Positions 24,028 to 61,090 of a DNA stretch of 64,000 bases are shown here, piece by piece. The notes under the pieces were generated by a model. That model ran no database searches and had not been told where the DNA came from. It was given only the letters and a program-made list of their open reading frames with translations. Position numbers and translations under genes: made by a program. Position 1 is the stretch's first letter; each line of letters opens with the position of its first letter. The DNA comes from a bacterium (GTDB lineage: Bacteria; Bacillota; Clostridia; Oscillospirales; Acutalibacteraceae): contig JALFLK010000005.1 in the NCBI GenBank assembly GCA_022774755.1, positions 11,733 to 75,732 on the forward strand, read 5' to 3'.

Positions 24028-24286
24028 TAAAAAGCGATGATCGGGACAAATCCCCGGGCAGGTTTCTTAAAGAGAGTCGGCGTTTGGTGCAAGCCGTCAG
24101 AAAGACCCGAGGGGTATCACCCGCAGCAAAACCGTCTAAAGCTGCCGCCGTTAAACGGTTTCGGGCGTTCTCCGTTACAGGGACAAATCGGCGACGCCGG
24201 TTTATGAGGTTTTCTTTAGAAAACGAAAAAGAGTGGTACCACGGAGTTTACGCTTCGTCTCTTAATTGAGACGAGGTTTTATTTTT
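24028..24286 (+). ncRNA. T-box riboswitch, probable Ile specifier (ATC at 24116-24118)
   Basis: AGAGA and GGTGCAA stem I boxes, GAGTGGTACCACGG T-box at 24231-24244, terminator CTTCGTCTC/GAGACGAGG plus T tract. Confidence 0.9.
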
Positions 24287-24405: not shown

Positions 24406-26070
24406 ATGGAATTAAAAGGCGCAGAAATCATTTGTGAATGTCTTTTGGAGCAGGGAGTTGACACGGTATTCGGCTACCCCGGAGGTGCGGCGCTGAACAC
24501 CTATGACGCACTGTATAAGTACAGCGACAGAATCAACCACATTCTTACTGCTCACGAGCAAGGTGCGTCTCACGCAGCTGACGGATACGCAAGGGCAACA
24601 GGCAAAACAGGCGTTGTTATTACTACCTCAGGCCCCGGCGCAACAAATATTGTCACGGGACTTGCCACCGCACACATTGACAGTATCCCCCTTGTTGCCA
24701 TTACAGGCAATGTAAACACCGACCAGCTGGGCAGGGACTCCTTTCAGGAGGTTGACATTGTTGATATCGTAAAGCCTGTTACCAAGGCAAGCTTTCTTGT
24801 AAAAAGCATTGACGCCCTTGCCGATACAATCCGCAGGGCTTTTACCATTGCAAATGAGGGCAGAAAAGGTCCTGTGCTTGTCGATGTTCCAAAGGATATA
24901 ACGGCGCAGACTTACAGCTATGAGCCTGTTAAGCCTGAGGGCAGACAAACCGTTCCGGTAAAAAACAAAGAATCGGTTGCAGAGGCTCTGGAGCTTATTA
25001 AGCACGCAGAAAGACCGATTATTTACGCAGGCGGCGGAATCATCAGCAGCGATACTTCGGAGAAATTCAGAAAATTTGCAGAGCTTGCAGACGCTCCCGT
25101 TTGCTGTTCCCTTATGGGGCTTGGCTGTATTCCTGCCGACCACAGACTGAATATGGGCAATATCGGTATGCACGGCGGATACGGAACAGGCGTTGCAACC
25201 TCACAATGCGATTTAATAATTGCCTGCGGTGCAAGATTCTCCGACCGTGTTGCAGGCGACAGGGAAAAATTCGGAAGTCAGGCAAAAATTATTCAGCTTG
25301 ATATTGATGAAAATGAAATCAATAAAAATGTAAAAGTTTACAATTACATTTTGGGAGATATGGAGAGCATACTGGATGCACTGTGCGAAGATTTGCCTCA
25401 GCAAAGCCACAGCGATTGGGTCAACAAACTCAATCAGCTGAAAGAAGAATCAGAGGTCAAATCCCAATATCCTCAATTTGCAAGCCCAAAACAGGTTATT
25501 GATAAGGTAAACAGTCTTAAATCAGGTGACGATGTTTTTGTTACCGATGTAGGTCAGCATCAGATGTGGATTGCGCAGTACGCCGATGTTATGTGCCCCA
25601 GAACCCTGCTGACCTCAGGCGGAATGGGTACTATGGGCTTTGGTATGGGTGCCGCAATCGGTGCCCAGACGGCTTTCCCCGATAAAAAGGTTATTCTCTT
25701 TACAGGCGACGGAAGCTTTCATATGAACTTTAACGAGCTTGTAACTTTGAAAAGCTACAACCTGCCAATCATTGTAATCGTGATGAACAACACCGTACTG
25801 GGTATGGTAAGGCAATGGCAGAAGCTGTTTTACGGCAAGCGTTTTTCTCAGACCGACCCCAAGCGTGCAACGGACTTTATCGCCCTTGCGTCAGCCTTTG
25901 GAATCAAGGGTATGAGCATTAACAGCGCAGAAGAGGTTGACGCTGTGCTCGAAAAGGCTTTTGCTTTAAACGAGCCGGTTGTAATCGACTGCAAAATCAG
26001 CCCTGATGAAAATGTACTGCCTATGATTCCTCCGGGAAAAACTGTTGATGATATAATTGTTGATATGTAA
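24406..26070 (+). CDS. ilvB: Acetolactate synthase large subunit
   Basis: FGYPGGA, HEQGA.H.ADGYAR, TSGPGATN, GDGSF.MN ThDP motif. Confidence 0.96.
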   Translation: MELKGAEIICECLLEQGVDTVFGYPGGAALNTYDALYKYSDRINHILTAHEQGASHAADGYARATGKTGVVITTSGPGATNIVTGLATAHIDSIPLVAITGNVNTDQLGRDSFQEVDIVDIVKPVTKASFLVKSIDALADTIRRAFTIANEGRKGPVLVDVPKDITAQTYSYEPVKPEGRQTVPVKNKESVAEALELIKHAERPIIYAGGGIISSDTSEKFRKFAELADAPVCCSLMGLGCIPADHRLNMGNIGMHGGYGTGVATSQCDLIIACGARFSDRVAGDREKFGSQAKIIQLDIDENEINKNVKVYNYILGDMESILDALCEDLPQQSHSDWVNKLNQLKEESEVKSQYPQFASPKQVIDKVNSLKSGDDVFVTDVGQHQMWIAQYADVMCPRTLLTSGGMGTMGFGMGAAIGAQTAFPDKKVILFTGDGSFHMNFNELVTLKSYNLPIIVIVMNNTVLGMVRQWQKLFYGKRFSQTDPKRATDFIALASAFGIKGMSINSAEEVDAVLEKAFALNEPVVIDCKISPDENVLPMIPPGKTVDDIIVDM

Positions 26071-38929: not shown

Positions 38930-41800
38930 TTATTCATCTCTGCCGCAGCACTTCTTGTATTTTTTACCGCTGCCGCAGGGACACGGGTCGTTTCTGCCGA
39001 CTTTTTTGCCTTTTCTGACGGTTTTGTTTACGGTGTCGGTTCCGTCGGAGGATGTAGCCGTAGGCTTTGCAACCTGTTCCCTTTTAAGCGCAAAGGTAAC
39101 AGGGTTTGGCTTTGGCTGTTCTTCGCCCTTATTTAAGATAACCTGATGGGCTGCGGCGGCCTTTTCCTCTGCAAGGCGCTTTGCCTCCTCAAAAGCTTTT
39201 TGGCGTTTCTGAATTTCCAGAACACGCTTAGGCGCCACAAGCATAAGCTTTACGGTATCCTCACGAATGTTCTCAATCATCTCGTCAAACATACCGAAGC
39301 CTTCCAGCTTATACTCAACAACAGGGTCGTGCTGACCGTAAGAACGCAGGCGGATACCTGTTTTAAGCTGTTCCATATTGTCGATATGATCCATCCAATG
39401 GGTATCAACGCTCTTGAGCAGATAAACACGCTCCATTTCACGCATTGTATCATTGTCAACAAGCTCTTCGTTTTCTTTGTAGATTTCCTTTGCGTCGGCG
39501 ATAATCATATCTCTGATTTCGTCAGCCTCAATCCTCTCAAATTCCTGAGGAGTAAAGGTGTATTTGCTTTTATCCTTTATGAGCCAGTCGCCGTAAAATT
39601 CAAGAAGTCCCTGCAAGTTCCAGTTCTCGTGCAGGCCCTCGGGCAGATAGTGCTTGACATTGGTGTCGATTGTCTGCTCAAGCATACCGATAATTGTATC
39701 TCTCAAATCCTCGCCGTTCAATACCTGGTCACGCTGTTTGTAGATAATCTCACGCTGGCGGTTCATAACATCGTCATACTGGAGGACATCCTTACGAATA
39801 CCGAAGTTCCTTGTTTCTACCTTTTCCTGAGAGCTTTCAATTATATTGGAAAGCATTTTGTTTTCAATGGGCATATCTTCGTCAACATTAAGGCGTTCCA
39901 TCATAGCCTTCATTCTGTCGCCGCCGAAAAGGCGCATCAAATCGTCTTCACAGGAAAGGAAGAAACGGCTGGTACCGGGATCGCCCTGACGGCCGGAACG
40001 ACCACGGAGCTGATTGTCAATACGGCGTGACTCGTGACGCTCTGTACCGATTATGTAAAGTCCGCCTGCCTCTTTAACCTTTTCTGCCTCGCCTTTGATT
40101 TCGTCTTTATATTTCTGATTTAATTCCGAGAAAGTTTTTCTTGCGTCCAGAATTTCCTGATTGTCTGTTTCTGCAAAGCCCGTTGCCTCTTCAATCATTT
40201 CTTCGCTGTAATTCTGTTTGCGCATAGACGCCTTTGCCATATACTCTGCGTTACCGCCCAGCACAATATCGGTACCACGGCCTGCCATATTGGTTGCGAT
40301 TGTAACTGCTCCGAACTTACCTGCCTGAGCTACAATTTCCGCCTCTTTGTCGTGCTGTTTTGCGTTGAGGACATTGTGCTTTATGCCTCTCTTTTTAAGC
40401 ATTTTGCTCAAAAGCTCTGATTTTTCAATGGAGATTGTACCTACAAGCACCGGCTGTCCTTTGCTGTGGCACTCTTCAATCTGGCTGATAACCGACTTAA
40501 ACTTGCCCATCTCCGTTTTAAAGATTACATCAGGCAAATCAACTCTTGCCAGAGGCTTGTTTGTAGGAACTTCCACAACATCAAGGCTGTAAATCTCTTC
40601 AAATTCCTGAGCCTCTGTCTGGGCGGTACCTGTCATACCGCTGAGCTTATTATAAAGACGGAAGTAGTTCTGGAAAGTAATGGTGGCAAGAGTTTTGCTT
40701 TCGTTCTGAATTTTTACGCCTTCCTTAGCTTCAATCGCCTGGTGCAGACCCTCGTTAAAGCGTCTGCCGTACATAAGACGGCCTGTAAATTCATCGACAA
40801 TAATAACCTCGCCGTCTTTAACAACATAGTCAACATCCAGCTTCATAACTCCGTTAGCCTTAATCGCCTGGTTAATGTGGTGCTGATAAGAAAGGTTGTC
40901 AGGGTCGGAAAGGTTTTCAAGTCCGAAAAACTCCTCCGCCTTTTTGACGCCGTTTTGAGTAAGGGTGGCGGTTTTCTGCTTTTCATCTACAATATAATCA
41001 ATCTGATTTTCGGCGTAAAAGCTCTCCATATCCTCTTTTGTATCCACTTCGGCAAATCTGTGAACCTTAAGTGTTTTTGCAAAGGCGTTCGCCTTGCTGT
41101 AAAGGTCGGTGGATTTATCTCCCTTGCCGGAAATAATAAGCGGAGTTCTCGCCTCATCAATCAGGATTGAGTCCACCTCGTCCACGATTGCAAAGGCATG
41201 GCCACGCTGAACCTTCTGCTCCTTGTAAACAACCATATTGTCACGGAGGTAGTCAAAGCCCAGCTCGTTGTTTGTTCCGTATGTAATGTCGCAGTTATAT
41301 GCGGCTTTTCTCTGATCGTTGTCAAGGTCGTGAACAATAAGTCCCACGGTAAGTCCCAGATAGCGGTAAAGCTTGCCCATCCACTCGGAGTCACGGCGTG
41401 CAAGGTAATCGTTGACGGTTACAATGTGAACGCCCTCTCCGGTAAGTCCGTTAAGGTAAGCGGGCAAGGTTGCCACCAGAGTTTTACCTTCACCTGTTTT
41501 CATCTCGGCAATTCTGCCCTGATGAAGAACAATTCCTCCCAAAATCTGTACGGGGAAATGCTTCATTCCCAAAACACGCCATGACGCCTCTCTGCAAACT
41601 GCAAATGCGTCGGGCAGAATATCGTCGGTGGTTTCTCCGTTTGCAAGGCGCTTTTTGAGTATGTCTGTCTGGGATTTAAGCTCAGACTCGCTCATATCTG
41701 CATATTTGCTCTCAAGAGCAAGCACCTTATCGCACAAGGGCTGAATTCTCTTTACCTCTTTTTTGCTGTAATTGCCGAAAAATGACCTAAATATATTCAT
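38930..41800 (-). CDS. secA: Preprotein translocase subunit SecA
   Basis: [52 protein letters not shown]. Confidence 0.98.
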
Positions 41801-41961: not shown

Positions 41962-43359
41962 TTAGCTTACTGCCGAAGCCTTCAGGCTTTCAGCCGCCTG
42001 AATCATAGCCGCACGGGCGACGGGGCCTGCATTTGAAAAGCCCATACCTCCGTGTTCCACTACCGCCGCAAAAGCAAGGGGGCAGTCCTCGTCGGTGGAA
42101 AATCCCACCATCCAGGCGTTAGGCTCCTTGCCCTCGCCTGTTTCGCCTGTTCCCGTTTTGGCGCATACCGTCAGTCCGCCGAACAGGCCGTCTCCGTAAT
42201 AATCGGATATTGTATATCTCATAAGCTCCTTAAGCTTAGCAGCCGTTGAGGGGCTTACAAGCTCGTCTTCCTCCGTACCCGGCAGGGTTATGCCCAGCTT
42301 TGTGAAGAAGGACGTGGAGTCATCCATAAAATAGGGCGTTTTTGTTTTTCCGCCGTTAGCTATTGCTCCGCATATAATCGCCATCTGCATAGGATTAACC
42401 ATATCGTCGTACTGGCCTACACCCGACCATGCAAGCTGATTGGTATTTGCGTTGCTTACATCGTAATTGCCCTTGGCGGTTTCCACTCCGCTTACGGTAA
42501 AGCTTGAGTTAATTCCCATTTTTTCAGCGGTTTGCGTAAGCTTATCTGCTCCCAGCTCTACGGCAAGCTCTGCAAAAACAATGTTGCAGGAATGAGCCAT
42601 AGCCTCTTTAAATGTTATTTCGCCGTGATATTCCATACAGGTTACGTCGCTTCCGCCGATTTCTTCTTTTTCTGCACAATAAAATGTTCTTGATTCAATA
42701 TCGGGGATATTTTCAATAGCGGCAGCGGCGGTTACAATCTTAAAAATCGAACCCGGAATATAGCTGGAGGACAACACATGGTCGAGGTAAACGCCCTCGT
42801 ATTCATCCTGATTATCCTCTGTTATTTCGGGAGGAGCCTGAGGGTCGTAGCCCTTTGAGCTGACCGAGCAGATAACCTCCCCGGTTTTGTAATTATATAC
42901 CACGCAGGCTCCGTCTCTGCCGTCGAGGACTTCGTAAGCCGCCTTGCAGGTTTCTGCGTCAACGGTGAGCCTGATGTCGTTGTGAGTTTTAAGGGTTTCG
43001 GGCATACCGACGCCCCAGATGAAATTGTAGCCCGTCAGCTGTGAACGGTACATACTCTGAACAGAGGTTGATATATTAAGTGAGTTGTCGCCTACAATAT
43101 GGAGCAGAGCCTCTCTTGTATCGGCGTCCTGATGATAAACTCGCTCACCGTCCACCGATTGAGCCAGAATCTCGCCGTTTCTGTCGTATACGGCACCTGC
43201 CTGCTCAAGCCCTCCGCTGCCGGAGATGTGACCGTTATAAGCCTGGTCAACCCAGTCTGAGCAATTTGTCAGCAAGAGAAATGTAAAATAGCCCAATCCG
43301 CACAAAAATGCCAGCGCCACTAACATTATCAGCCAACTTCTTTGAAGTGTTCTTTTCAT
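41962..43359 (-). CDS. Class B penicillin-binding protein (PbpA-like transpeptidase)
   Basis: SIFK (SxxK), SCN (SxN), KTGT (KTG) motifs; N-terminal TM helix. Confidence 0.9.
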   Translation of the reverse strand: MKRTLQRSWLIMLVALAFLCGLGYFTFLLLTNCSDWVDQAYNGHISGSGGLEQAGAVYDRNGEILAQSVDGERVYHQDADTREALLHIVGDNSLNISTSVQSMYRSQLTGYNFIWGVGMPETLKTHNDIRLTVDAETCKAAYEVLDGRDGACVVYNYKTGEVICSVSSKGYDPQAPPEITEDNQDEYEGVYLDHVLSSSYIPGSIFKIVTAAAAIENIPDIESRTFYCAEKEEIGGSDVTCMEYHGEITFKEAMAHSCNIVFAELAVELGADKLTQTAEKMGINSSFTVSGVETAKGNYDVSNANTNQLAWSGVGQYDDMVNPMQMAIICGAIANGGKTKTPYFMDDSTSFFTKLGITLPGTEEDELVSPSTAAKLKELMRYTISDYYGDGLFGGLTVCAKTGTGETGEGKEPNAWMVGFSTDEDCPLAFAAVVEHGGMGFSNAGPVARAAMIQAAESLKASAVS

Positions 43360-43533
43360 AAACGGCATCCTTTCTCAAAAGTCCCCTCTGCAGTGGCAGA
43401 GCGCTTAACCAAACCGAAATAATAAGCTAAACAGAAACGATAAATCAAACCAAAATAATGTTATATATCCTTGTTTTAACAAATATGTGTCGGTTTTGTG
43501 TTGATATTTAAAAATATTCTCAGGAAGAAATGA

Positions 43534-45207
43534 TTATTTCTTTACAGCATATGTTCTTTCGTCCGCAGCCTTAATAAACGCCAAAAGTCCCCAGCAGGAA
43601 ATCATACTTGAACCGCCGAGGCTGATAAAGGGAAGCGTAACGCCGGTCAAAGGCAGAATATCGGTTGCGCCGAAAATATTAAGCGCCATCTGAATAACAA
43701 GCAGTCCTGCAGCACAGCACGCCGTTACGGAATAAAATGTGCTTCGGCTTCTTGTTGTAACGCTTCTTGCATAAATAATCAGCGCCATTATTGCGATTGC
43801 AACCGTAAAGGCAACTATAACGCCAAGCTCCTCGGCTACAATTCCGAAAACAAGGTCGCTTTCGGAGGCAAACACATATTTCAGACATCCGTTGCCTACA
43901 CCGACGCCGAAAAGTCCGCCGCTTGCTATATATGTAAGCACTCTCGCCATCTGAAAACCGGCGTTCTGGGGGTCTTCCATTGCGTGTCCCCAAACGGCAA
44001 AACGGCTGGCGATGTAAGGTTTAAACTTCAGTACGATTGTTCCGCCGAACACAGCCGCCGCAACAGCCAGTATAACGGTTTTGAAATCGCCGGAACGCAT
44101 AAACGCCATAAGCAAAAATGTGGCGAAGAAAATAAGCGCAGTTCCGAAGTCGCCCATAAGGGCAAGTCCGCCAACGCATACGGCGGAGAATATGATAAAT
44201 TCCAAAAGGTTTTTCTTGGTCTGCATTACATCGAGGCTTGAAGCGCCCACGATTATGTAAATTACCTTTACAAATTCCGAAGGCTGAATTGACACTCCGC
44301 CGATTTTAATCCAGTTGGCTGCGCCGTAGCTTATCTTGCCGAACACTATGCTGACGCCCAGCAGACAAACAGCCAGAATCATAAGGTAAATTCGGAATTT
44401 TGCAATACGGTCGGGGTCTTCTATAACCTTTATAATAATGCAGAACAGTATCATTCCCGCAACGGCGGCTACAAGCTGAACAAATGCGCTTTTCAGTTCC
44501 TGCCGTACAAGCAGAACAGCGCCTATTCCCGTAAGGAACAACGCCAGGGATTCAAGCTCAAAGTTCACCCTGCGGAGTATCACCGTTGAAACAAAGAAAA
44601 ATCCCCATTCTGCAAACGCCAAAAGTCCGAACACCGCCATGGGTGTGTAGTCTCTAACCTCGTTTGTGAAGCACGCCTCCACCGTAAGGAAAAAGTGGAA
44701 CAGCGTTATTAAAAGCAAAAGCTTATAGGGCTTTATTGCAGGCTTGTTGCTGACCTTTGAGAAAAACCAGGTAGGGCCTAATTTTTCGTGAAATTCCTCT
44801 CCTCTTTTAAAGGTAAAGGTCGAGTAGCCCACGGTGATTTTGTCGTCAATATAAACCTGGGTTCTGCCGTGGGTCTTTTTGCCGTTTACATAAGTACCTG
44901 TCTTGGAGTCGGTATCGTTAATAAACCAGCCCTCTTTTCGCCTGAGCAAAACGCAGTGGTTTCTCGACACCGCAGGGTCGTCAACAAAAATATCGCTTGC
45001 TTTGCTTCTTCCCAGGGAATTTTCCCAAAAAAGCACGGGTATTTTTAAATCAGTAACCTCATTGTGAAGCAACACAAGGGGTTTTTCGGGACGGCGGCGC
45101 CTTCTCATAGAGGCGTAGCACTGGTAAACGATAACTATTGCATAAACAGGCAGCAGCATCCTGAGAGCCACCACGGCAATGTCCATAATTACTGTCATTT
45201 TAGTCAA
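43534..45207 (-). CDS. FHA-domain fused FtsW/RodA/SpoVE (SEDS) protein
   Basis: LGRS......DDPAVSRNH..L, DS.TGTYVNG FHA motifs; IQPSEF.K, GDFGTA, GVTLPFIS.GGSS SEDS motifs. Confidence 0.9.
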   Translation of the reverse strand: MTKMTVIMDIAVVALRMLLPVYAIVIVYQCYASMRRRRRPEKPLVLLHNEVTDLKIPVLFWENSLGRSKASDIFVDDPAVSRNHCVLLRRKEGWFINDTDSKTGTYVNGKKTHGRTQVYIDDKITVGYSTFTFKRGEEFHEKLGPTWFFSKVSNKPAIKPYKLLLLITLFHFFLTVEACFTNEVRDYTPMAVFGLLAFAEWGFFFVSTVILRRVNFELESLALFLTGIGAVLLVRQELKSAFVQLVAAVAGMILFCIIIKVIEDPDRIAKFRIYLMILAVCLLGVSIVFGKISYGAANWIKIGGVSIQPSEFVKVIYIIVGASSLDVMQTKKNLLEFIIFSAVCVGGLALMGDFGTALIFFATFLLMAFMRSGDFKTVILAVAAAVFGGTIVLKFKPYIASRFAVWGHAMEDPQNAGFQMARVLTYIASGGLFGVGVGNGCLKYVFASESDLVFGIVAEELGVIVAFTVAIAIMALIIYARSVTTRSRSTFYSVTACCAAGLLVIQMALNIFGATDILPLTGVTLPFISLGGSSMISCWGLLAFIKAADERTYAVKK

Positions 45208-45476: not shown

Positions 45477-45505
45477 TTGTAATGTTTTTTAAAAAGCTAT
45501 ATAAT
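45477..45505 (+). promoter_or_regulatory. Sigma-A promoter of IscU-like/GGGtGRT operon
   Basis: TTGTAA-17 nt-TATAAT. Confidence 0.6.
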
Positions 45506-45603
45506 ATCTGCGTATGAGTGGATTTGCGGAGCCGCCGCCTGCTTGTGCGGTGTGTTCAGTTATCAGGGCTCAAACAATTATTATTGTGAAAGGAGAAGTA
45601 CAT

Positions 45604-46296
45604 ATGATTTATTCAAAAGAAGTTGAAAATATGTGTACTGTTGCAAAGGGACCTAAGCACGGTCCGGCACCTATTCCCGAAGAGGGTAAATGGGTAAAAT
45701 CTTACGATATCAAAGACATCTCCGGTCTTTCTCACGGTATCGGTTGGTGTGCGCCTCAGCAGGGCGCCTGCAAGCTGACCCTTAACGTAAAAGACGGTAT
45801 TGTTGAAGAGGCTCTTGTTGAAACCATCGGCTGTTCGGGTATGACTCACTCTGCGGCTATGGCGGCAGAAATTCTGCCTAACAAAACCCTCCTTGAGTGT
45901 CTTAACACCGACTTGGTTTGCGACGCTATCAACACAGCTATGAAGAATATTTTTGAACAGCTCGTTTACGGCAGAAGCCAGACGGCTTTCTCCGAGGGCG
46001 GTCTTCCCGTTGGCGCCGGTCTTGAAGACTTGGGCAAGGGACTTCGTTCTCAGGTAGGCACAATGTTCTCTACCAACAAAAAAGGCGTTCGTTATATGGA
46101 AATGGCAGAGGGATACGTTCTTAAAACTGCTCTTGACGAAAACAACGAGGTATGCGGCTATCAATTTGTTAAGCTTGGCAAAATGATGGAGGATATCCGC
46201 CACGGCGTTGAGCCTAATGAAGCTTATAAAAACAACATCGGTCAGTACGGTCGTTTTGACAATGCGGCTAAGTACATTGACCCCCGTGAAGAATAA
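45604..46296 (+). CDS. IscU/NifU-N-like protein with C-terminal extension
   Basis: Three IscU-spaced Cys motifs (GWCAP, IGCSG, LVCD); AAAGGAG RBS. Confidence 0.85.
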   Translation: MIYSKEVENMCTVAKGPKHGPAPIPEEGKWVKSYDIKDISGLSHGIGWCAPQQGACKLTLNVKDGIVEEALVETIGCSGMTHSAAMAAEILPNKTLLECLNTDLVCDAINTAMKNIFEQLVYGRSQTAFSEGGLPVGAGLEDLGKGLRSQVGTMFSTNKKGVRYMEMAEGYVLKTALDENNEVCGYQFVKLGKMMEDIRHGVEPNEAYKNNIGQYGRFDNAAKYIDPREE

Positions 46297-46317
46297 TAGG
46301 TAAGGAGGAACTTAATT

Positions 46318-47322
46318 ATGGCAGTAACATTTGAAAGTAAAGAAAGAAGAATGCCTAAAATTGAGAAATGCCTTGCCAAATACGGTATCGCAAGTCTTGA
46401 AGAGGCAAGAGAGCTTTGCAACAACTTGGGCTTTGACCCTTATCAGATTGTTAAAGATGTTCAGCCAATCGCATTTGAAAATGCAAGCTGGGCTTACACC
46501 CTGGGCTGTGCAGTTGCAATCAAAAAAGGCGTTACAACAGCCGCTGACGCAGCCGAGGCTATCGGCGAGGGTCTTGAGGCTTTCTGTATTCCCGGTTCTG
46601 TTGCGGAGCAGAGAAACGTAGGCTTAGGACACGGTAACCTGGGCGCAATGCTCTTAAGGGATGAAACAAAGTGCTTCGCATTCCTTGCAGGTCACGAAAG
46701 CTTTGCCGCTGCCGAGGGCGCTATCGGTATTGCAAGAAACGCTAACAAGGCAAGAAAAGAGCCCCTGAGAGTTATCCTCAACGGCTTGGGCAAGGACGCA
46801 GCTTACATTATTTCGAGAATCAACGGCTTTACATATGTTAAAACAGAGTTTGATTACTTTACAAGCGAGCTTAAAATCGTTGAAGAGAGAGCTTTCTCCG
46901 ACGGCGAGCGTGCGGCTGTACGCTGCTACGGCGCTGACGATGTTCGTGAAGGCGTTGCAATTATGCAGCACGAGAATGTCGGCGTTTCAATTACAGGTAA
47001 CTCCTCCAACCCCACACGTTTCCAGCACCTTGTTGCCGGCACATACAAAAAGTGGGCTATCGAAAACGGCGTTAAGTACTTCTCAGTTGCTTCCGGCGGC
47101 GGCACAGGCCGTACGCTTCATCCCGATAATATGGGTGCAGGTCCTGCTTCTTACGGTCTTACAGACTCTATGGGTCGTATGCACGGCGACGCTCAGTTTG
47201 CAGGTTCTTCTTCTGTTCCTGCTCACGTTGAGATGATGGGTCTTATCGGAATGGGCAACAACCCAATGGTAGGCGCAACAGTTGCCTGCGCAGTTGCAGT
47301 TTACGAGGGATTAAAGAAATAA
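46318..47322 (+). CDS. GGGtGRT family protein (function unknown)
   Basis: SGGGTGRTLHPD signature; FLAGHESFAAAEGAI; PAHVEMMG. Confidence 0.92.
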   Translation: MAVTFESKERRMPKIEKCLAKYGIASLEEARELCNNLGFDPYQIVKDVQPIAFENASWAYTLGCAVAIKKGVTTAADAAEAIGEGLEAFCIPGSVAEQRNVGLGHGNLGAMLLRDETKCFAFLAGHESFAAAEGAIGIARNANKARKEPLRVILNGLGKDAAYIISRINGFTYVKTEFDYFTSELKIVEERAFSDGERAAVRCYGADDVREGVAIMQHENVGVSITGNSSNPTRFQHLVAGTYKKWAIENGVKYFSVASGGGTGRTLHPDNMGAGPASYGLTDSMGRMHGDAQFAGSSSVPAHVEMMGLIGMGNNPMVGATVACAVAVYEGLKK

Positions 47323-47342: not shown

Positions 47343-47372
47343 AAGCGGAAAGCATTTGCTTTCCGCTTTTTT
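47343..47372 (+). terminator. Rho-independent terminator
   Basis: AAGCGGAAAGC/GCTTTCCGCTT stem plus T tract. Confidence 0.85.
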
Positions 47373-47496
47373 GTTTCTCTAAACGTTCCAAAAAGCAATA
47401 TATGTAATTTATCCCCTAAAAAATGCAATTTACCGAAAAAGTCTTTTAAAATTTTTGAGCTTTTGCCATAATATTAACAGTCAAGGGGGAATGCAG

Positions 47497-58995: not shown

Positions 58996-59134
58996 CTATG
59001 AAAACGGCAGTTATTTAAGATGCCGTTGCCCTTTTGCACAAATACGCCCTATGTTTTATATTCATTCTGCCCATAGAGTTTTTAATCCCACAATGATAAA
59101 ATATAGCTGATAAATCTATTAAGAGGTGATACAC

Positions 59135-61090
59135 GTGAAAGCTAAAAAAATCCTTTCCGCCGTTTTGGCGGCGGCGATGCTCTGCTCTGCCGCAATTACC
59201 GTAAACGGTGCGGAAATCTCCCAAGATGTTTCTTCGTCCGTTACAAGTGCCGCTGAAACAGGCTTGTACGCTCACGGTGTTTTGGGCAATTCTGCCGAAA
59301 CCGAGGCTTGGCAATGCTGGCAATGGAACGACAGTAAAAACTGTTTTTATTTTTACCTTCCCTCGGGAGCTGACGACCAAAAGGTAGAGCTATACAACAA
59401 CAGCGCAAATCAGGCTGAGTTTGACGGTACGGTTATTGAGCCGTATTCAAGTGCTACCGTAAGTTACAGCACAACCGTCAGCAGTACCGCAAAGCTTAAC
59501 GGAAGCACAAACAAGGTTAAATTTATGAAATCTACCGCCGAGGCGGCAATTTATCTTAACAACCTTAACGCCGACGGAAACGGCACCGGCTTGTGGGAAT
59601 ATTTAAGCAATGACAAGGAAAACTCAGCCTCCGCAACAAGTGCAATTATTGGCAGCGACGGCACTGTGGACAACACAGCCGTTAAAAAAATCAAAGGCAG
59701 AGGAAACTCCACCTGGTACAAGGACAAAAAGCCTTTTAACATTACCTTTGACGCAAGGGTTTCAATAGCAGGTATGGAAAGCGGTAAAAAGTATTCTCTT
59801 CTTGCAAATTATCAGGATTCTTCACTTTCAAGAAACCGTTTCCTGTATGATTTATCCGACAGCGTGGATATGCCCTATGCCTCTGATTCAAGATATGTTG
59901 ATTTTTATGTTGACGGCAAGTATAAAGGCTCTTATCAGGCAGCTCAGAAGATTGACACAGGTAAAGGAAGTCTGCTTTCGGATATTGACGAAGCAGGTTA
60001 TATGAATCCTGACGGAACCTTTGCAGAAAACTTTGCATTTGTATGCGAGGTTGACGCTTCAGCAGGAGACGCCGACTATTATTTCAATTCCGACAGCGGA
60101 AACAAAATAACCCTTAAAACTCCCGAGCTTGATTACGGTGCAGAGTATTACGACCGGGTGCTTGCTTATGCAAAATCAAAGTTTGACCCAATGTTTGACG
60201 CAATCAAAAACAAAGTATCTAATTTAAACGATTATGTTGATGTTGAATCCCTTGCAAAAATTTACCTGATTAACGAATTGGGCAAAAACTGGGATTCGGG
60301 CGTTTCAAGCCTTTACTTCACCTACAAGCAAGACGCCGACGGAAACTGGAAGTTCTTTGCTTCTCCCGTTTGGGATTATGATAACTCCCTGGGCAACGCA
60401 ACAGGCGTTGAGTATGAGCTTTCAAATATGGGTGTGTCCGATTATGAAGAGCCGACCGGCTGGTGGTGCAAATATAAGGGCGGCAATAAAGGGGCAAAAA
60501 CCTCGAGCAACATTATGTTTAACACAGCAAGGAATACAACCGTAATGGAGCTTGTTCCGAGAATTTGGTTTGAGGAGTTCGTTCCTGCTCTTAACGCCTT
60601 TGCAAACAACACCTCAACCGACGAAAACTTCTACTCAAGAGACAAGTATTACAGCCTTATAAGCGGTTCCGCAGAGATGAATTACACCTTAGGCTGGCAG
60701 CTTTACACAAGCAGCTGGATTTGCGACCACTCCTCGCTGAACATTTGCAGATATGATTACAGCACAAAGACATATTCGCAGGATTCAAGCGCAACCCATT
60801 ACGACACAAACACCTTTAAAGGTGAATTTGACTACGCTGCTGACTGGATGATGAGCAGAGCCGCTTGGTTAAGCTCTCAGTTTGCATCAAGTTACACTCC
60901 CTCCTACACTCTCGGAGATGTAAACCTTGACGGAACGGTAAATATCAACGATGTTTCCGTGCTCCAGTCTTATCTTGCAAAATTAACATCTTTGTCAGAC
61001 ACAGCTATGCTCGCCGCTGATGTTGACCAGAACGGCGAAATAAGTATACTTGACGCAACCGCAATTCAAACTGCACTTGCAAAGCTGTAA
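59135..61090 (+). CDS. Secreted CotH-family kinase with C-terminal dockerin
   Basis: Signal peptide; KGRGNSTW, LLANY.D.S..RN, PVWDYD CotH motifs; GDVNLDG/ADVDQNG duplicated dockerin. Confidence 0.88.
   Translation: MKAKKILSAVLAAAMLCSAAITVNGAEISQDVSSSVTSAAETGLYAHGVLGNSAETEAWQCWQWNDSKNCFYFYLPSGADDQKVELYNNSANQAEFDGTVIEPYSSATVSYSTTVSSTAKLNGSTNKVKFMKSTAEAAIYLNNLNADGNGTGLWEYLSNDKENSASATSAIIGSDGTVDNTAVKKIKGRGNSTWYKDKKPFNITFDARVSIAGMESGKKYSLLANYQDSSLSRNRFLYDLSDSVDMPYASDSRYVDFYVDGKYKGSYQAAQKIDTGKGSLLSDIDEAGYMNPDGTFAENFAFVCEVDASAGDADYYFNSDSGNKITLKTPELDYGAEYYDRVLAYAKSKFDPMFDAIKNKVSNLNDYVDVESLAKIYLINELGKNWDSGVSSLYFTYKQDADGNWKFFASPVWDYDNSLGNATGVEYELSNMGVSDYEEPTGWWCKYKGGNKGAKTSSNIMFNTARNTTVMELVPRIWFEEFVPALNAFANNTSTDENFYSRDKYYSLISGSAEMNYTLGWQLYTSSWICDHSSLNICRYDYSTKTYSQDSSATHYDTNTFKGEFDYAADWMMSRAAWLSSQFASSYTPSYTLGDVNLDGTVNINDVSVLQSYLAKLTSLSDTAMLAADVDQNGEISILDATAIQTALAKL

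What the first reader, a model, noticed from the sequence alone, without database searches (positions are those of the whole stretch)
45604..47322. IscU-like + GGGtGRT operon: a conserved, uncharacterised Fe-S system
This is a self-contained two-gene unit with its own promoter, strong RBSs, a terminator, and codon usage like highly expressed genes (TTC/TAC/AAC/ATC). The IscU-like protein keeps three scaffold-type Cys motifs but has an extra N-terminal segment and a ~110-aa C-terminal extension, and there is no cysteine desulfurase nearby. The partner has a Gly-rich GGGTGRT loop and conserved His/Glu/Cys motifs. Hypothesis: a two-subunit Fe-S enzyme or an alternative anaerobic cluster-assembly complex. 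I know of no assigned function.
Basis: partly seen in the sequence, partly recalled or inferred. Interest (0 to 1): 0.7.

Follow-up and report, generated by a model that had tools for sequence, protein, structure and literature searches.

The report
Conserved NifU-like plus GGGtGRT gene pair
This is an ordinary copy of a very widespread, very conserved and highly expressed two-gene unit of gut and rumen anaerobes, whose function nobody has worked out; it is most likely a two-subunit iron-sulfur enzyme, not a cluster-assembly machine.

Summary
Window 45604-46296 (A, 230 aa) and 46318-47322 (B, 334 aa) form a stand-alone bicistronic operon with a promoter-like site, two strong ribosome-binding sites and a real terminator. 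Its codon bias is the strongest in the window.

B is a full-length member of Pfam PF14057 "GGGtGRT" (E 1.8e-194). A is only distantly IscU-like: it scores below the family thresholds, keeps one of the three canonical IscU cysteines in place, and carries its own four invariant cysteines.

A sits directly upstream of B in essentially every locus examined (about 155 of 160; the rest are cut by contig ends). These loci span Clostridia, Bacteroidota, Actinomycetota, Vibrio and Methanobacteriaceae. Both proteins are 15-20 points more conserved than SecA.

A confident model of B (pLDDT 86) has no analogue in the PDB. Papers up to April 2026 still call the pair uncharacterised. It is expressed in proportion to iron, as Fe-S client enzymes are.

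One new lead: a sister clade (about 50% identity) always sits in an operon with phosphoglycerate mutases and a histidine phosphatase.

Best reading: a two-subunit Fe-S enzyme linked to phosphorylated C3 metabolism. The reaction is unknown.

The parts
45477..45505 (+). Promoter-like site: TTGTAA, 17 nt, TATAAT
   Evidence: 10 of 12 matches. Related loci also carry a TTG...-TATAAT pair 50-110 nt upstream of gene A. Consensus match only; the transcription start was not mapped.
45506..45603 (+). 5' leader of about 98 nt, with ribosome-binding site GAAAGGAG at 45588-45595
   Evidence: Read from the sequence. No Rfam family matches. Folding is no better than shuffles (z = -0.43). Across 77 loci only the Shine-Dalgarno sequence is conserved.
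45604..46296 (+). Gene A, 230 aa: an IscU/SufU-fold-derived subunit. About 30 aa N-terminal segment, IscU-like core at about aa 30-113, and a conserved 115-aa C-terminal extension with an invariant Gly-rich stretch (YGR.Q.AFS..GL..G....DL).
   Evidence: NifU_N scores 16.9 bits, below the cutoff of 22. A profile against the PDB hits IscU at E = 6e-4, over aa 49-113 only. IscU and SufU are the top Foldseek hits of the low-confidence model.
45748..45921 (+). Codons of the four invariant cysteines of A: C49 (45748-45750), C56 (45769-45771), C77 (45832-45834), C106 (45919-45921). This is the proposed Cys4 metal or cluster site.
   Evidence: Invariant in alignment A7, which includes the sister clade and the archaeal copy. 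Only C77 aligns with a canonical IscU cysteine (C63). Ligand role is inferred, not shown.
46302..46308 (+). Ribosome-binding site AAGGAGG of gene B, inside the 21-nt gap between the genes
   Evidence: Read from the sequence. The A-B gap is 15-106 nt in 78 Clostridia loci. The two genes overlap by 8-11 nt in the sister clade.
46318..47322 (+). Gene B, 334 aa: GGGtGRT protein (PF14057). N-terminal helical bundle (aa 1-113), Rossmann-like alpha/beta core (aa 119-258) and a C-terminal region.
   Evidence: E = 1.8e-194, profile positions 1-326 of 327. Model pLDDT 86.3, pTM 0.88. No PDB or BFVD analogue.
47092..47130 (+). Codons of the S259-GGGTGRT-LHPDN271 motif. This is the Gly-rich loop after the last core strand, proposed to bind an anion or phosphate.
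   Evidence: Most positions (S259-T266, H268, P269, D270) are invariant in 100 sequences including the 50%-identical sister clade. It is the lowest-confidence loop of the model (residues 261-265 and 272-278 have pLDDT below 50), as expected for a ligand- or partner-dependent loop. Function inferred.
47343..47378 (+). Intrinsic terminator: 11-bp stem, 4-nt loop, T-run
   Evidence: -17.7 kcal/mol, z = -4.63, 0 of 200 shuffles fold as well.

Best explanation
The operon encodes the two subunits of one conserved, abundant, iron-dependent Fe-S protein. It is an enzyme that consumes Fe-S clusters, not a machine that makes them.

Subunit A is derived from the IscU/SufU fold. Its metal site is re-wired to four invariant cysteines (C49, C56, C77, C106), which I infer hold a stable cluster. 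It also has a conserved 115-aa extension that I infer docks on B.

Subunit B (GGGtGRT, PF14057) has a fold with no solved analogue: a helical bundle plus a Rossmann-like core. Its invariant residues are H105, H126-E127-S128, E133, R146, K159, R167, T226-S229, K245, the S259-GGGTGRT loop, H268, D270, R287, H289 and H303. They look like a binding site for an anionic, probably phosphorylated, small molecule.

The most likely substrates are phosphorylated C3 acids of lower glycolysis (phosphoglycerate type). The reaction itself is not known.

Shown: operon anatomy, universal A-B pairing, extreme conservation, the absence of solved structural relatives, iron-proportional expression (from the literature) and the sister-clade operon.

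Inferred: cluster binding, the A-B complex, the phosphate site and the substrate class.

My confidence that this is a two-subunit Fe-S client enzyme is about 0.55. My confidence in the phosphoglycerate-type substrate is about 0.25.
For: Pairing:
- A lies directly upstream of B in 78 of 80 Clostridia genome loci; the other two are cut by contig ends.
- The same holds in 77 of 80 diverse metagenome loci, plus one where the genes overlap.
- It also holds in Methanobacteriaceae, Collinsella, Parabacteroides and B. finegoldii, and in Vibrio and Persicobacter.
- Sister-clade A' and B' overlap by 8-11 nt, which suggests translational coupling.
- No neighbour is conserved, so the pair is a functional unit in itself.

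Conservation:
- A is 74-89% and B 79-88% identical in genomes where SecA is 62-69% identical.
- B is 68-82% identical across phyla.
- Among 1.84 billion representatives the family collapses into essentially one 50% cluster with no remote relatives.

Expression:
- Codon bias is the highest in the window.
- Strain-identical metatranscriptome contigs have depth 20-56 over A-B, against 13-16 over the flanking genes.
- Metaproteomes report high abundance in many taxa (PMC11204068, PMC7035244).

Iron:
- BT0173-74 fall 11-12.8-fold on iron depletion (PMC10434189).
- In C. pasteurianum the GGGtGRT protein is 7.1-fold and 2.2-fold higher, and one spot of the adjacent NifU-related protein 3.7-fold and 2.9-fold higher (a second spot gave mixed values), in iron excess. 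Hydrogenase and PFOR behave the same way (PMC5395762).

Link to phospho-C3 metabolism:
- In five independent sister-clade lineages the genes sit in the operon ApgM phosphoglycerate mutase - A' - B' - membrane protein X - His_Phos_1.
- One lineage adds a GpmI-type iPGM.
- The ApgM scores 517 bits against an equivalog cutoff of 489.
- In B. thetaiotaomicron, transposon insertions in BT0173-4 came out of the same screen as pfkA and a peptidase that controls pyruvate kinase. All relieve glucose repression of Cur (bioRxiv 10.64898/2026.04.10.717545).
Against: - No cluster, complex, ligand or activity has been shown for any member.
- The only attempt to model A together with B gave an unusable A part (pLDDT 25-60), so the interface and the geometry of the four cysteines are untested.
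- Four-Cys ligation argues against a Lewis-acid dehydratase cluster of the aconitase type and leaves the chemistry open.
- Mainstream pairs, including this window, are never next to glycolytic genes. The phosphoglycerate link rests on a paralogous clade that may have a different substrate.
- The B. thetaiotaomicron mutants grew normally on glucose and the Cur effect was only 2-fold.
- The four cysteines could hold zinc, as in SufU.
Confidence: 0.45

Rival explanations
1. An alternative Fe-S cluster assembly, carrier or storage system of anaerobes. A is the scaffold on which a cluster is built, perhaps from free sulfide without a desulfurase. B is its accessory or loading factor, or the complex stores Fe-S when iron is plentiful.
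For: - A is the only part with any similarity to a known family, and that family is the IscU/SufU scaffolds.
- No desulfurase is needed if sulfide is used, which fits sulfide-rich habitats.
- In Collinsella the pair lies 1.9 kb from the suf operon.
- High abundance and induction by iron would suit a storage role.
Against: - A fails the IscU criteria tested: score cutoffs, C37, D39, C106, LPPVK and a desulfurase partner.
- From general knowledge, four invariant cysteines suggest a stable rather than a transferable cluster.
- From general knowledge, assembly systems are usually kept up or induced when iron is scarce. This pair is strongly repressed then.
- Organisms with the pair also have full Suf/SufU.
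- The sister-clade operon with phosphomutases has no obvious place in cluster assembly.
Confidence: 0.2
2. A metal- or redox-sensing or servicing module: a metallochaperone or regulator. It would load, repair or control metal-dependent enzymes such as the Mn/Co-dependent phosphoglycerate mutases, and so tune glycolytic flux instead of catalysing a step.
For: - In the sister clade the genes are flanked both by metal-dependent mutases (ApgM, GpmI; Pfam 'Metalloenzyme') and by a His_Phos_1 protein, a family I know to be metal-independent. This pattern resembles metal-sparing gene sets. A Fur-family gene lies nearby in one locus.
- The B. thetaiotaomicron phenotype is regulatory and mild, without a growth defect.
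Against: - From general knowledge, very high abundance and codon bias are unusual for a chaperone or sensor.
- B has no P-loop NTPase signature or fold match to the known metallochaperone GTPases.
- Mainstream pairs are not linked to any client gene.
Confidence: 0.12
3. A redox or detoxification enzyme of anaerobes: a reductase for a small oxidant or for a nitrogen or sulfur species. It would use the A cluster for electron transfer from ferredoxin or rubredoxin.
For: - Four-Cys ligation suits electron transfer.
- Scattered neighbours are redox proteins: rubredoxin, TlpA/OsmC and a nitroreductase, and a FAD-binding protein.
- It is reported alongside rubrerythrins in the gut isolate proteomes.
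- It is down-regulated together with hcp in B. thetaiotaomicron.
Against: - None of these neighbours recurs.
- No flavin or NAD motif or family match is seen in B.
- This reading does not explain the phosphomutase operon of the sister clade.
Confidence: 0.1

Closest known systems
GGGtGRT protein family (Pfam PF14057) with its NifU-like partner, e.g. Bacteroides thetaiotaomicron BT0173-BT0174 and Clostridium pasteurianum F502_05012/F502_05017
   Same: B matches the family profile end to end. It has the same length, the same motif and the same upstream partner. Identity to Bacteroidales copies is 73-74%.
   Different: Nothing of substance. The window copy is a typical Ruminococcus/Oscillospiraceae member, 92-95% identical to MAG proteins. 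The family itself has no known function or structure.
IscU / NifU N-terminal domain / SufU Fe-S scaffold and sulfur-transfer proteins (PF01592, TIGR01999, TIGR01994)
   Same: Weak but consistent sequence similarity over A aa 49-113 (E = 6e-4 with a profile). The G-C-[GS] cysteine (A C77 = IscU C63) is kept. IscU and SufU are the top structural matches of the poor A model (probability 0.97-1.0).
   Different: - Below all curated cutoffs.
- IscU C37 is replaced by Q53 and D39 by A55, and A's C106 aligns elsewhere, so IscU C106 has no aligned counterpart (IscU H105 was not covered by the alignments).
- Two new cysteines flank the old site.
- No LPPVK motif.
- A 115-aa conserved extension is added.
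- No desulfurase partner.
- Regulated in the opposite sense by iron.
Two-subunit Fe-S hydro-lyases of anaerobes (L-serine dehydratase alpha/beta, class I fumarase/tartrate dehydratase alpha/beta), as a functional analogy only (from general knowledge)
   Same: Two adjacent genes, abundant, iron-dependent, oxygen-sensitive lifestyle, and acting on small hydroxy or phospho acids.
   Different: No sequence or fold similarity was found. Those enzymes use three-Cys clusters with a free iron, whereas A has four invariant cysteines.
Sister-clade operon ApgM - A' - B' - X - His_Phos_1 (loci L081-L084, L086, L088, L090, L096-L097)
   Same: A' is 53% identical to A and B' is 46-55% identical to B. All catalytic-looking invariant residues and the four cysteines are kept.
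   Different: A' lacks the first roughly 10-20 residues, including C11. The genes are embedded in a five- or six-gene operon with phosphoglycerate mutases, a histidine phosphatase and an uncharacterised membrane protein. The window pair stands alone.

Membership tests
GGGtGRT (Pfam PF14057) | Full-length match to the family HMM above the gathering score | tested here: met
   645.4 bits against a cutoff of 27. Residues 5-330 match profile positions 1-326 of 327.
GGGtGRT (Pfam PF14057) | Conserved GGGTGRT motif in a protein of about 330 aa | tested here: met
   G260-T266 in a 334-aa protein. Invariant in 100 aligned members.
GGGtGRT (Pfam PF14057) | Empirical feature (not part of the Pfam definition): NifU-like partner gene immediately upstream | tested here: met
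   Window gap of 21 nt. Found in 78 of 80 and in 77 (plus 1 overlapping) of 80 loci; the rest are cut by contig ends.
IscU / NifU_N scaffold (PF01592, TIGR01999, TIGR03419) | Score at or above the curated cutoff | tested here: not met
   Pfam 16.9 bits against 22. NCBIfam 19.9 against 187.9 and 15.8 against 192.4.
IscU / NifU_N scaffold (PF01592, TIGR01999, TIGR03419) | Three cluster-ligand cysteines at the canonical positions (E. coli C37, C63, C106) | tested here: not met
   HMMER alignments: C77 aligns with C63. Position C37 is Q53 in A. A's C106 aligns to a helix residue of A. fulgidus IscU, not to the third cysteine. A has its own invariant set C49/C56/C77/C106.
IscU / NifU_N scaffold (PF01592, TIGR01999, TIGR03419) | Asp39 and His105 at the site; LPPVK chaperone-binding motif | tested here: not met
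   The D39 position is A55. C106 is preceded by Val, not His, and no LPPVK is present in the 230-aa sequence. The list of IscU hallmark residues is from general knowledge.
IscU / NifU_N scaffold (PF01592, TIGR01999, TIGR03419) | Genomic or functional partnership with a cysteine desulfurase | tested here: not met
   None within about 9 kb in the window. No recurrent neighbour in 160 loci. The only case seen is Collinsella, where the suf genes are 1.9 kb away across a transposase.
IscU / NifU_N scaffold (PF01592, TIGR01999, TIGR03419) | IscU-like three-dimensional fold | tested here: inconclusive
   IscU and SufU chains are the top Foldseek hits (E about 0.02-0.05, probability 0.97-1.0, 85-120 columns). 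However, the model of the A part has pLDDT of only 25-64.
IscU / NifU_N scaffold (PF01592, TIGR01999, TIGR03419) | Binds and transfers an Fe-S cluster | not testable with these tools
   Needs anaerobic biochemistry.
SufU sulfur-transfer protein (TIGR01994) | Score at or above the curated cutoff | tested here: not met
   12.7 bits against 92.5.
Tubulin/FtsZ-type GTP-binding domain (considered because its signature GGGTG[ST]G, recalled from memory, resembles GGGTGRT) | Fold similarity to FtsZ or tubulin | tested here: not met
   No FtsZ or tubulin chain appears among the Foldseek PDB hits shown (best hit overall E = 0.02). The only relative seen was phage PhuZ at E = 0.57 in BFVD.
Phosphofructokinase family (considered because of partial Foldseek hits) | Significant structural or sequence match | tested here: not met
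   Only about 150 columns of a generic Rossmann-like layer match: E 0.04-0.09, TM 0.23-0.25, 12-14% identity. No Pfam PFK hit.
Known anti-phage defence or phage families | Match to PADLOC or PHROGs models | tested here: not met
   No PADLOC hit for A, B or the sister-operon proteins. In PHROGs, run on the sister-operon proteins only, there was a weak NifU-like hit for A' (E = 1e-4) and a hit for the His_Phos_1 protein to phrog_12933 of unknown function (E = 3.8e-25).

The most novel reading that the evidence does not exclude
B founds a new enzyme fold. Together with a re-purposed IscU-fold cluster subunit, it catalyses a still unrecognised Fe-S-dependent reaction on a phosphorylated glycolytic C3 intermediate. 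That reaction would be a hidden, highly expressed step of central metabolism shared by gut and rumen Bacteroidota, Clostridia, Actinomycetota, some Proteobacteria and methanogens.
Probability: 0.3. Interest if true: 0.85.

Novelty: new member of a known kind. Interest (0 to 1): 0.58.

Why it matters
The pair is among the most conserved and most abundant proteins of unknown function in gut and rumen anaerobes. It is more conserved than SecA, it is seen in many metaproteomes, and it responds strongly to iron. No structure, ligand or reaction is known for it.

Assigning its function would fill a gap in the metabolic maps used for microbiome modelling. It would also probably reveal a new protein fold and a new use of the IscU fold.

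- four candidate ligand cysteines;
- a list of invariant residues in B;
- evidence that it behaves as an Fe-S client and not as an assembly factor;
- a sister operon that points to phosphoglycerate-type substrates.

The window copy itself adds nothing unusual to the family.

Tried and rejected
1. Remote homology for B: phmmer and a profile against the PDB, and phmmer against 1.84 billion representatives. Only one tight family came up, with no link to any other family.

2. Fold search with a confident B model against the PDB and BFVD. Nothing scored below E = 0.02. The CooS-V/CODH, SHMT and PFK rows are poor superpositions (rmsd 6-20 A).

3. Modelling the complex through the natural read-through fusion P0125. 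MAFFT misplaced either the A-only or the B-only sequences in larger sets (A1, A2, A5). The small correct alignment A6 gave pLDDT 60.6 with an unusable A part.

4. Internal homology between the A extension and the B core, suggested by those MAFFT misalignments. Rejected by hhalign (probability 0.1).

5. Apparent domain fusions of B (proteins of 390-570 aa). They are assembly chimeras, duplications or frameshifts.

6. Conserved neighbours of mainstream pairs: none.

7. A regulatory RNA or a conserved operator in the leader: none.

8. Defence-system or phage origin of the sister operon: no support.

9. The metagenome scan aimed at the sister clade returned only mainstream members. It was reused for the pairing count.

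10. Cluster look-up for organism names returned none.

11. Literature searches for 'GGGtGRT', 'PF14057' and BT0173/BT0174 found no functional study. The PF14057 hits are Plasmodium gene identifiers.
Full report
**What is in the window**

Two same-strand ORFs occupy 45604-46296 (A, 230 aa) and 46318-47322 (B, 334 aa). The mechanical ORF for A begins at 45514. B follows after 21 nt, behind AAGGAGG.

A promoter-like TTGTAA-17-TATAAT lies at 45477-45505, and a hairpin plus T-run at 47343-47368. The hairpin is far more stable than shuffles (-17.7 kcal/mol, z = -4.6). The 98-nt leader is not (z = -0.4), and it matches no Rfam family.

Both genes have the highest share of C-ending F/Y/N/I/H/D codons in the window: 0.65, against 0.43 +/- 0.09 for 43 other ORFs. 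This exceeds even the glycogen phosphorylase gene (0.61), at ordinary GC3.

The flanking genes are:
- upstream, on the opposite strand: SecA, a PBP and FtsW-FHA;
- downstream: CarD, an alanine symporter, a HAD hydrolase, an EamA transporter, a TrxB-like protein and an asparaginase.

No cysteine desulfurase or Suf gene is among them.

**What the proteins are**

B matches Pfam PF14057 'GGGtGRT' from end to end (645 bits) and no NCBIfam model.

A hits NifU_N, IscU and SufU models only below their cutoffs. A profile of A reaches IscU chains in the PDB at E = 6e-4, and only over aa 49-113.

In those alignments:
- A's C77 (G-C-S-G) corresponds to IscU C63.
- IscU C37 and D39 correspond to Q53 and A55.
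- A's C106 aligns elsewhere than IscU's third cysteine.
- A has no LPPVK motif.

Across A proteins from Clostridia, a methanogen and the sister clade, four cysteines are invariant: C49, C56, C77 and C106. H44, W48, D107 and a Gly-rich stretch in the 115-aa C-terminal extension are invariant too.

A is therefore an IscU-fold derivative with a re-wired four-Cys site, not an IscU. Even the poor model of A finds IscU and SufU as its best structural matches. I count that as weak support for the fold only.

**Pairing and conservation**

- In 80 genome loci (Oscillospiraceae, Christensenellales, Clostridium and others), A lies 15-106 nt upstream of B in 78. The other two are cut by the contig end.
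- In 80 further loci from diverse metagenomes it is adjacent in 77 and overlaps B in one more.
- The same order holds in Methanobacteriaceae, Collinsella, Parabacteroides and Bacteroides finegoldii, and in Vibrio and Persicobacter.

No neighbour recurs. At most 3 of the 80 metagenome loci share any flanking gene; among the 80 genome loci only an upstream SecA recurs (13 loci). The pair is a self-sufficient unit.

B is 68-82% identical across phyla. In genomes where SecA is 62-69% identical to the window's, A is 74-89% and B 79-88% identical.

An exhaustive search of 1.84 billion cluster representatives found 1870 hits. Nearly all are fragments or frameshifted copies of one tight family. The only genuinely divergent full-length member is P0270 at 50% identity. 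The 'long' versions are assembly chimeras or duplications. P0125 is a stop-codon read-through of A into B.

**Structure**

With a 100-sequence alignment that includes the 50% clade (A3), AlphaFold2 gave a confident model of B (pLDDT 86.3, pTM 0.88). It has a seven-helix N-terminal bundle, a Rossmann-like alpha/beta core (119-258) and a C-terminal region. The GGGTG loop (261-265) and residues 272-278 are the only low-confidence parts.

Foldseek found nothing below E = 0.02 in the PDB. The best hits cover about 145 columns of a generic Rossmann layer at TM about 0.24. Nothing came up in BFVD either. A sequence profile against the PDB found nothing. B therefore has no solved relative.

The residues invariant across both clades are rich in His, Arg, Lys, Ser and Thr, and sit at the ends of the core strands. 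They include GHG105, AGHES128, GLGK159, ITGNS229, SGGGTGRT266-LHPDN271, GRMH289 and SSSVPAH303. This is the usual place for a phosphate or anion site. That reading is inference.

An attempt to model A with B through the P0125 fusion failed for the A part.

**What is known from papers**

Every paper in the library that names the family treats it as uncharacterised. That includes an April 2026 preprint.

Useful facts from those papers:
- In B. thetaiotaomicron, BT0173-74 are down 11-12.8-fold on iron depletion (PMC10434189).
- In C. pasteurianum the GGGtGRT protein is 7.1-fold (early) and 2.2-fold (late) higher in iron excess, and one spot of the adjacent NifU-related protein 3.7-fold and 2.9-fold (a second spot gave mixed values). 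This is the pattern of hydrogenase and PFOR (PMC5395762).
- Transposon insertions in BT0173-4 came out of the same screen as pfkA and the peptidase that controls pyruvate kinase. They give a 2-fold loss of glucose repression of Cur, with no growth defect.

Metatranscriptome contigs identical to the window cover A-B at depth 20-56, against 13-16 for the flanks. This measure is crude.

**The new lead**

Searching with P0270 exposed a sister clade. B' is 46-55% identical to B and A' is 53% identical to A. A' lacks the first residues, including C11.

In five independent lineages these genes sit in one tight operon, with overlapping stop and start codons: ApgM-type phosphoglycerate mutase (517 bits against an equivalog cutoff of 489) - A' - B' - a 315-332-aa membrane protein X with no known family - a His_Phos_1 protein. 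One lineage adds a GpmI-type mutase. One copy lies in a plain chromosomal context next to IleRS, Fur and YpeB/SleB. No defence-system model matches; the only phage-family (PHROG) matches are a weak NifU-like hit for A' and a hit of the His_Phos_1 protein to a PHROG of unknown function.

This is the only gene-context signal the family offers. It points to phosphoglycerate-like phospho-acids. The B. thetaiotaomicron screen points, more weakly, to glycolysis as well.

**Interpretation**

The best-supported reading is that A and B are the two subunits of one abundant Fe-S client enzyme. A supplies a Cys4-bound cluster on a re-purposed IscU fold. B supplies a phosphate-binding active site of a new fold. 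The substrate is probably a phosphorylated C3 intermediate.

That alternative is not excluded.

Still inferred: cluster binding, complex formation, the site and the substrate. The mainstream pairs show no metabolic neighbours. Four-Cys ligation does not suggest a classical dehydratase. The B. thetaiotaomicron phenotype is mild.

**Novelty and verdict**

The window copy is an ordinary member of a family catalogued in Pfam and named by NCBI. Several papers have noted the family as an abundant unknown, so the finding is not new as an entity. The family's function, structure and chemistry remain open, and a specialist would regard it as a good target.

I file it as a new member of a known but uncharacterised kind, with interest about 0.58. 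The most novel reading not excluded is a new fold catalysing a hidden Fe-S-dependent step of central metabolism, which I put at about 0.3.

Noticed in passing
window 24028-24265 (+) and 24406-26070 (+): A T-box leader (Rfam RF00230, 101.5 bits) lies upstream of a TPP-dependent enzyme with the acetolactate-synthase domain set.
   Followed up: partly
window 43534-45207 (-): An FtsW/RodA-family protein carries an N-terminal FHA domain. It is followed by a transpeptidase PBP at 41962-43368 and SecA at 38930-41800.
   Followed up: no
window 59126-61090 (+): A CotH-domain protein with a type I dockerin. This fits a cellulosome-bearing Ruminococcus, as do the best genome matches.
   Followed up: no
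proteins P0121, P0122, P0241, P0249, P0261, P0320, P0408, P0409; P0125: Public collections hold many over-long 'GGGtGRT' proteins. They are assembly chimeras (ABC transporter, SusD or Tex fused to B) or internal duplications. I suspect the gene's extreme conservation causes contigs of different species to be joined. P0125 is a stop-codon read-through that joins A and B through 8 residues.
   Followed up: yes
L081 7005-7958; L086 6992-7972; L088 2067-3065; L090 3808-4770; L096 5996-6943: Protein X of the sister operon has two N-terminal membrane helices and conserved motifs (EH.ATH.YAH..RD, PIRVK, NLFGF.CVE, LKT.AD). It matches nothing in Pfam, NCBIfam or the PDB.
   Followed up: partly
L180 5791-5982 (Parabacteroides distasonis): A 63-aa ORF with two predicted membrane helices is wedged between A and B and overlaps the end of A by 8 nt. 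It is absent in Bacteroides finegoldii, where the gap is 19 nt.
   Followed up: partly
L179 1-3373 and 5248-7005 (Collinsella aerofaciens): The pair lies 1.9 kb downstream of sufB-sufD-sufS-sufU, with a transposase gene between them. This is the only case seen of proximity to Fe-S assembly genes.
   Followed up: no
phage collection hits H11-H16 (e.g. MT835590.1 4632-5588): Six unannotated 'Bacteriophage sp.' contigs from human faeces carry B or fragments of it at 70-98% identity. They may be mis-binned bacterial DNA rather than phage genes.
   Followed up: no
plasmid collection hits H1-H10: Records labelled as plasmids that carry the pair are non-mobilizable replicons or fragments of 40 kb to 1.8 Mb (Vibrio sp. 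THAF, Persicobacter, gut isolates). They look chromosomal or chromid-like, so the pair is not evidently plasmid-borne.
   Followed up: no
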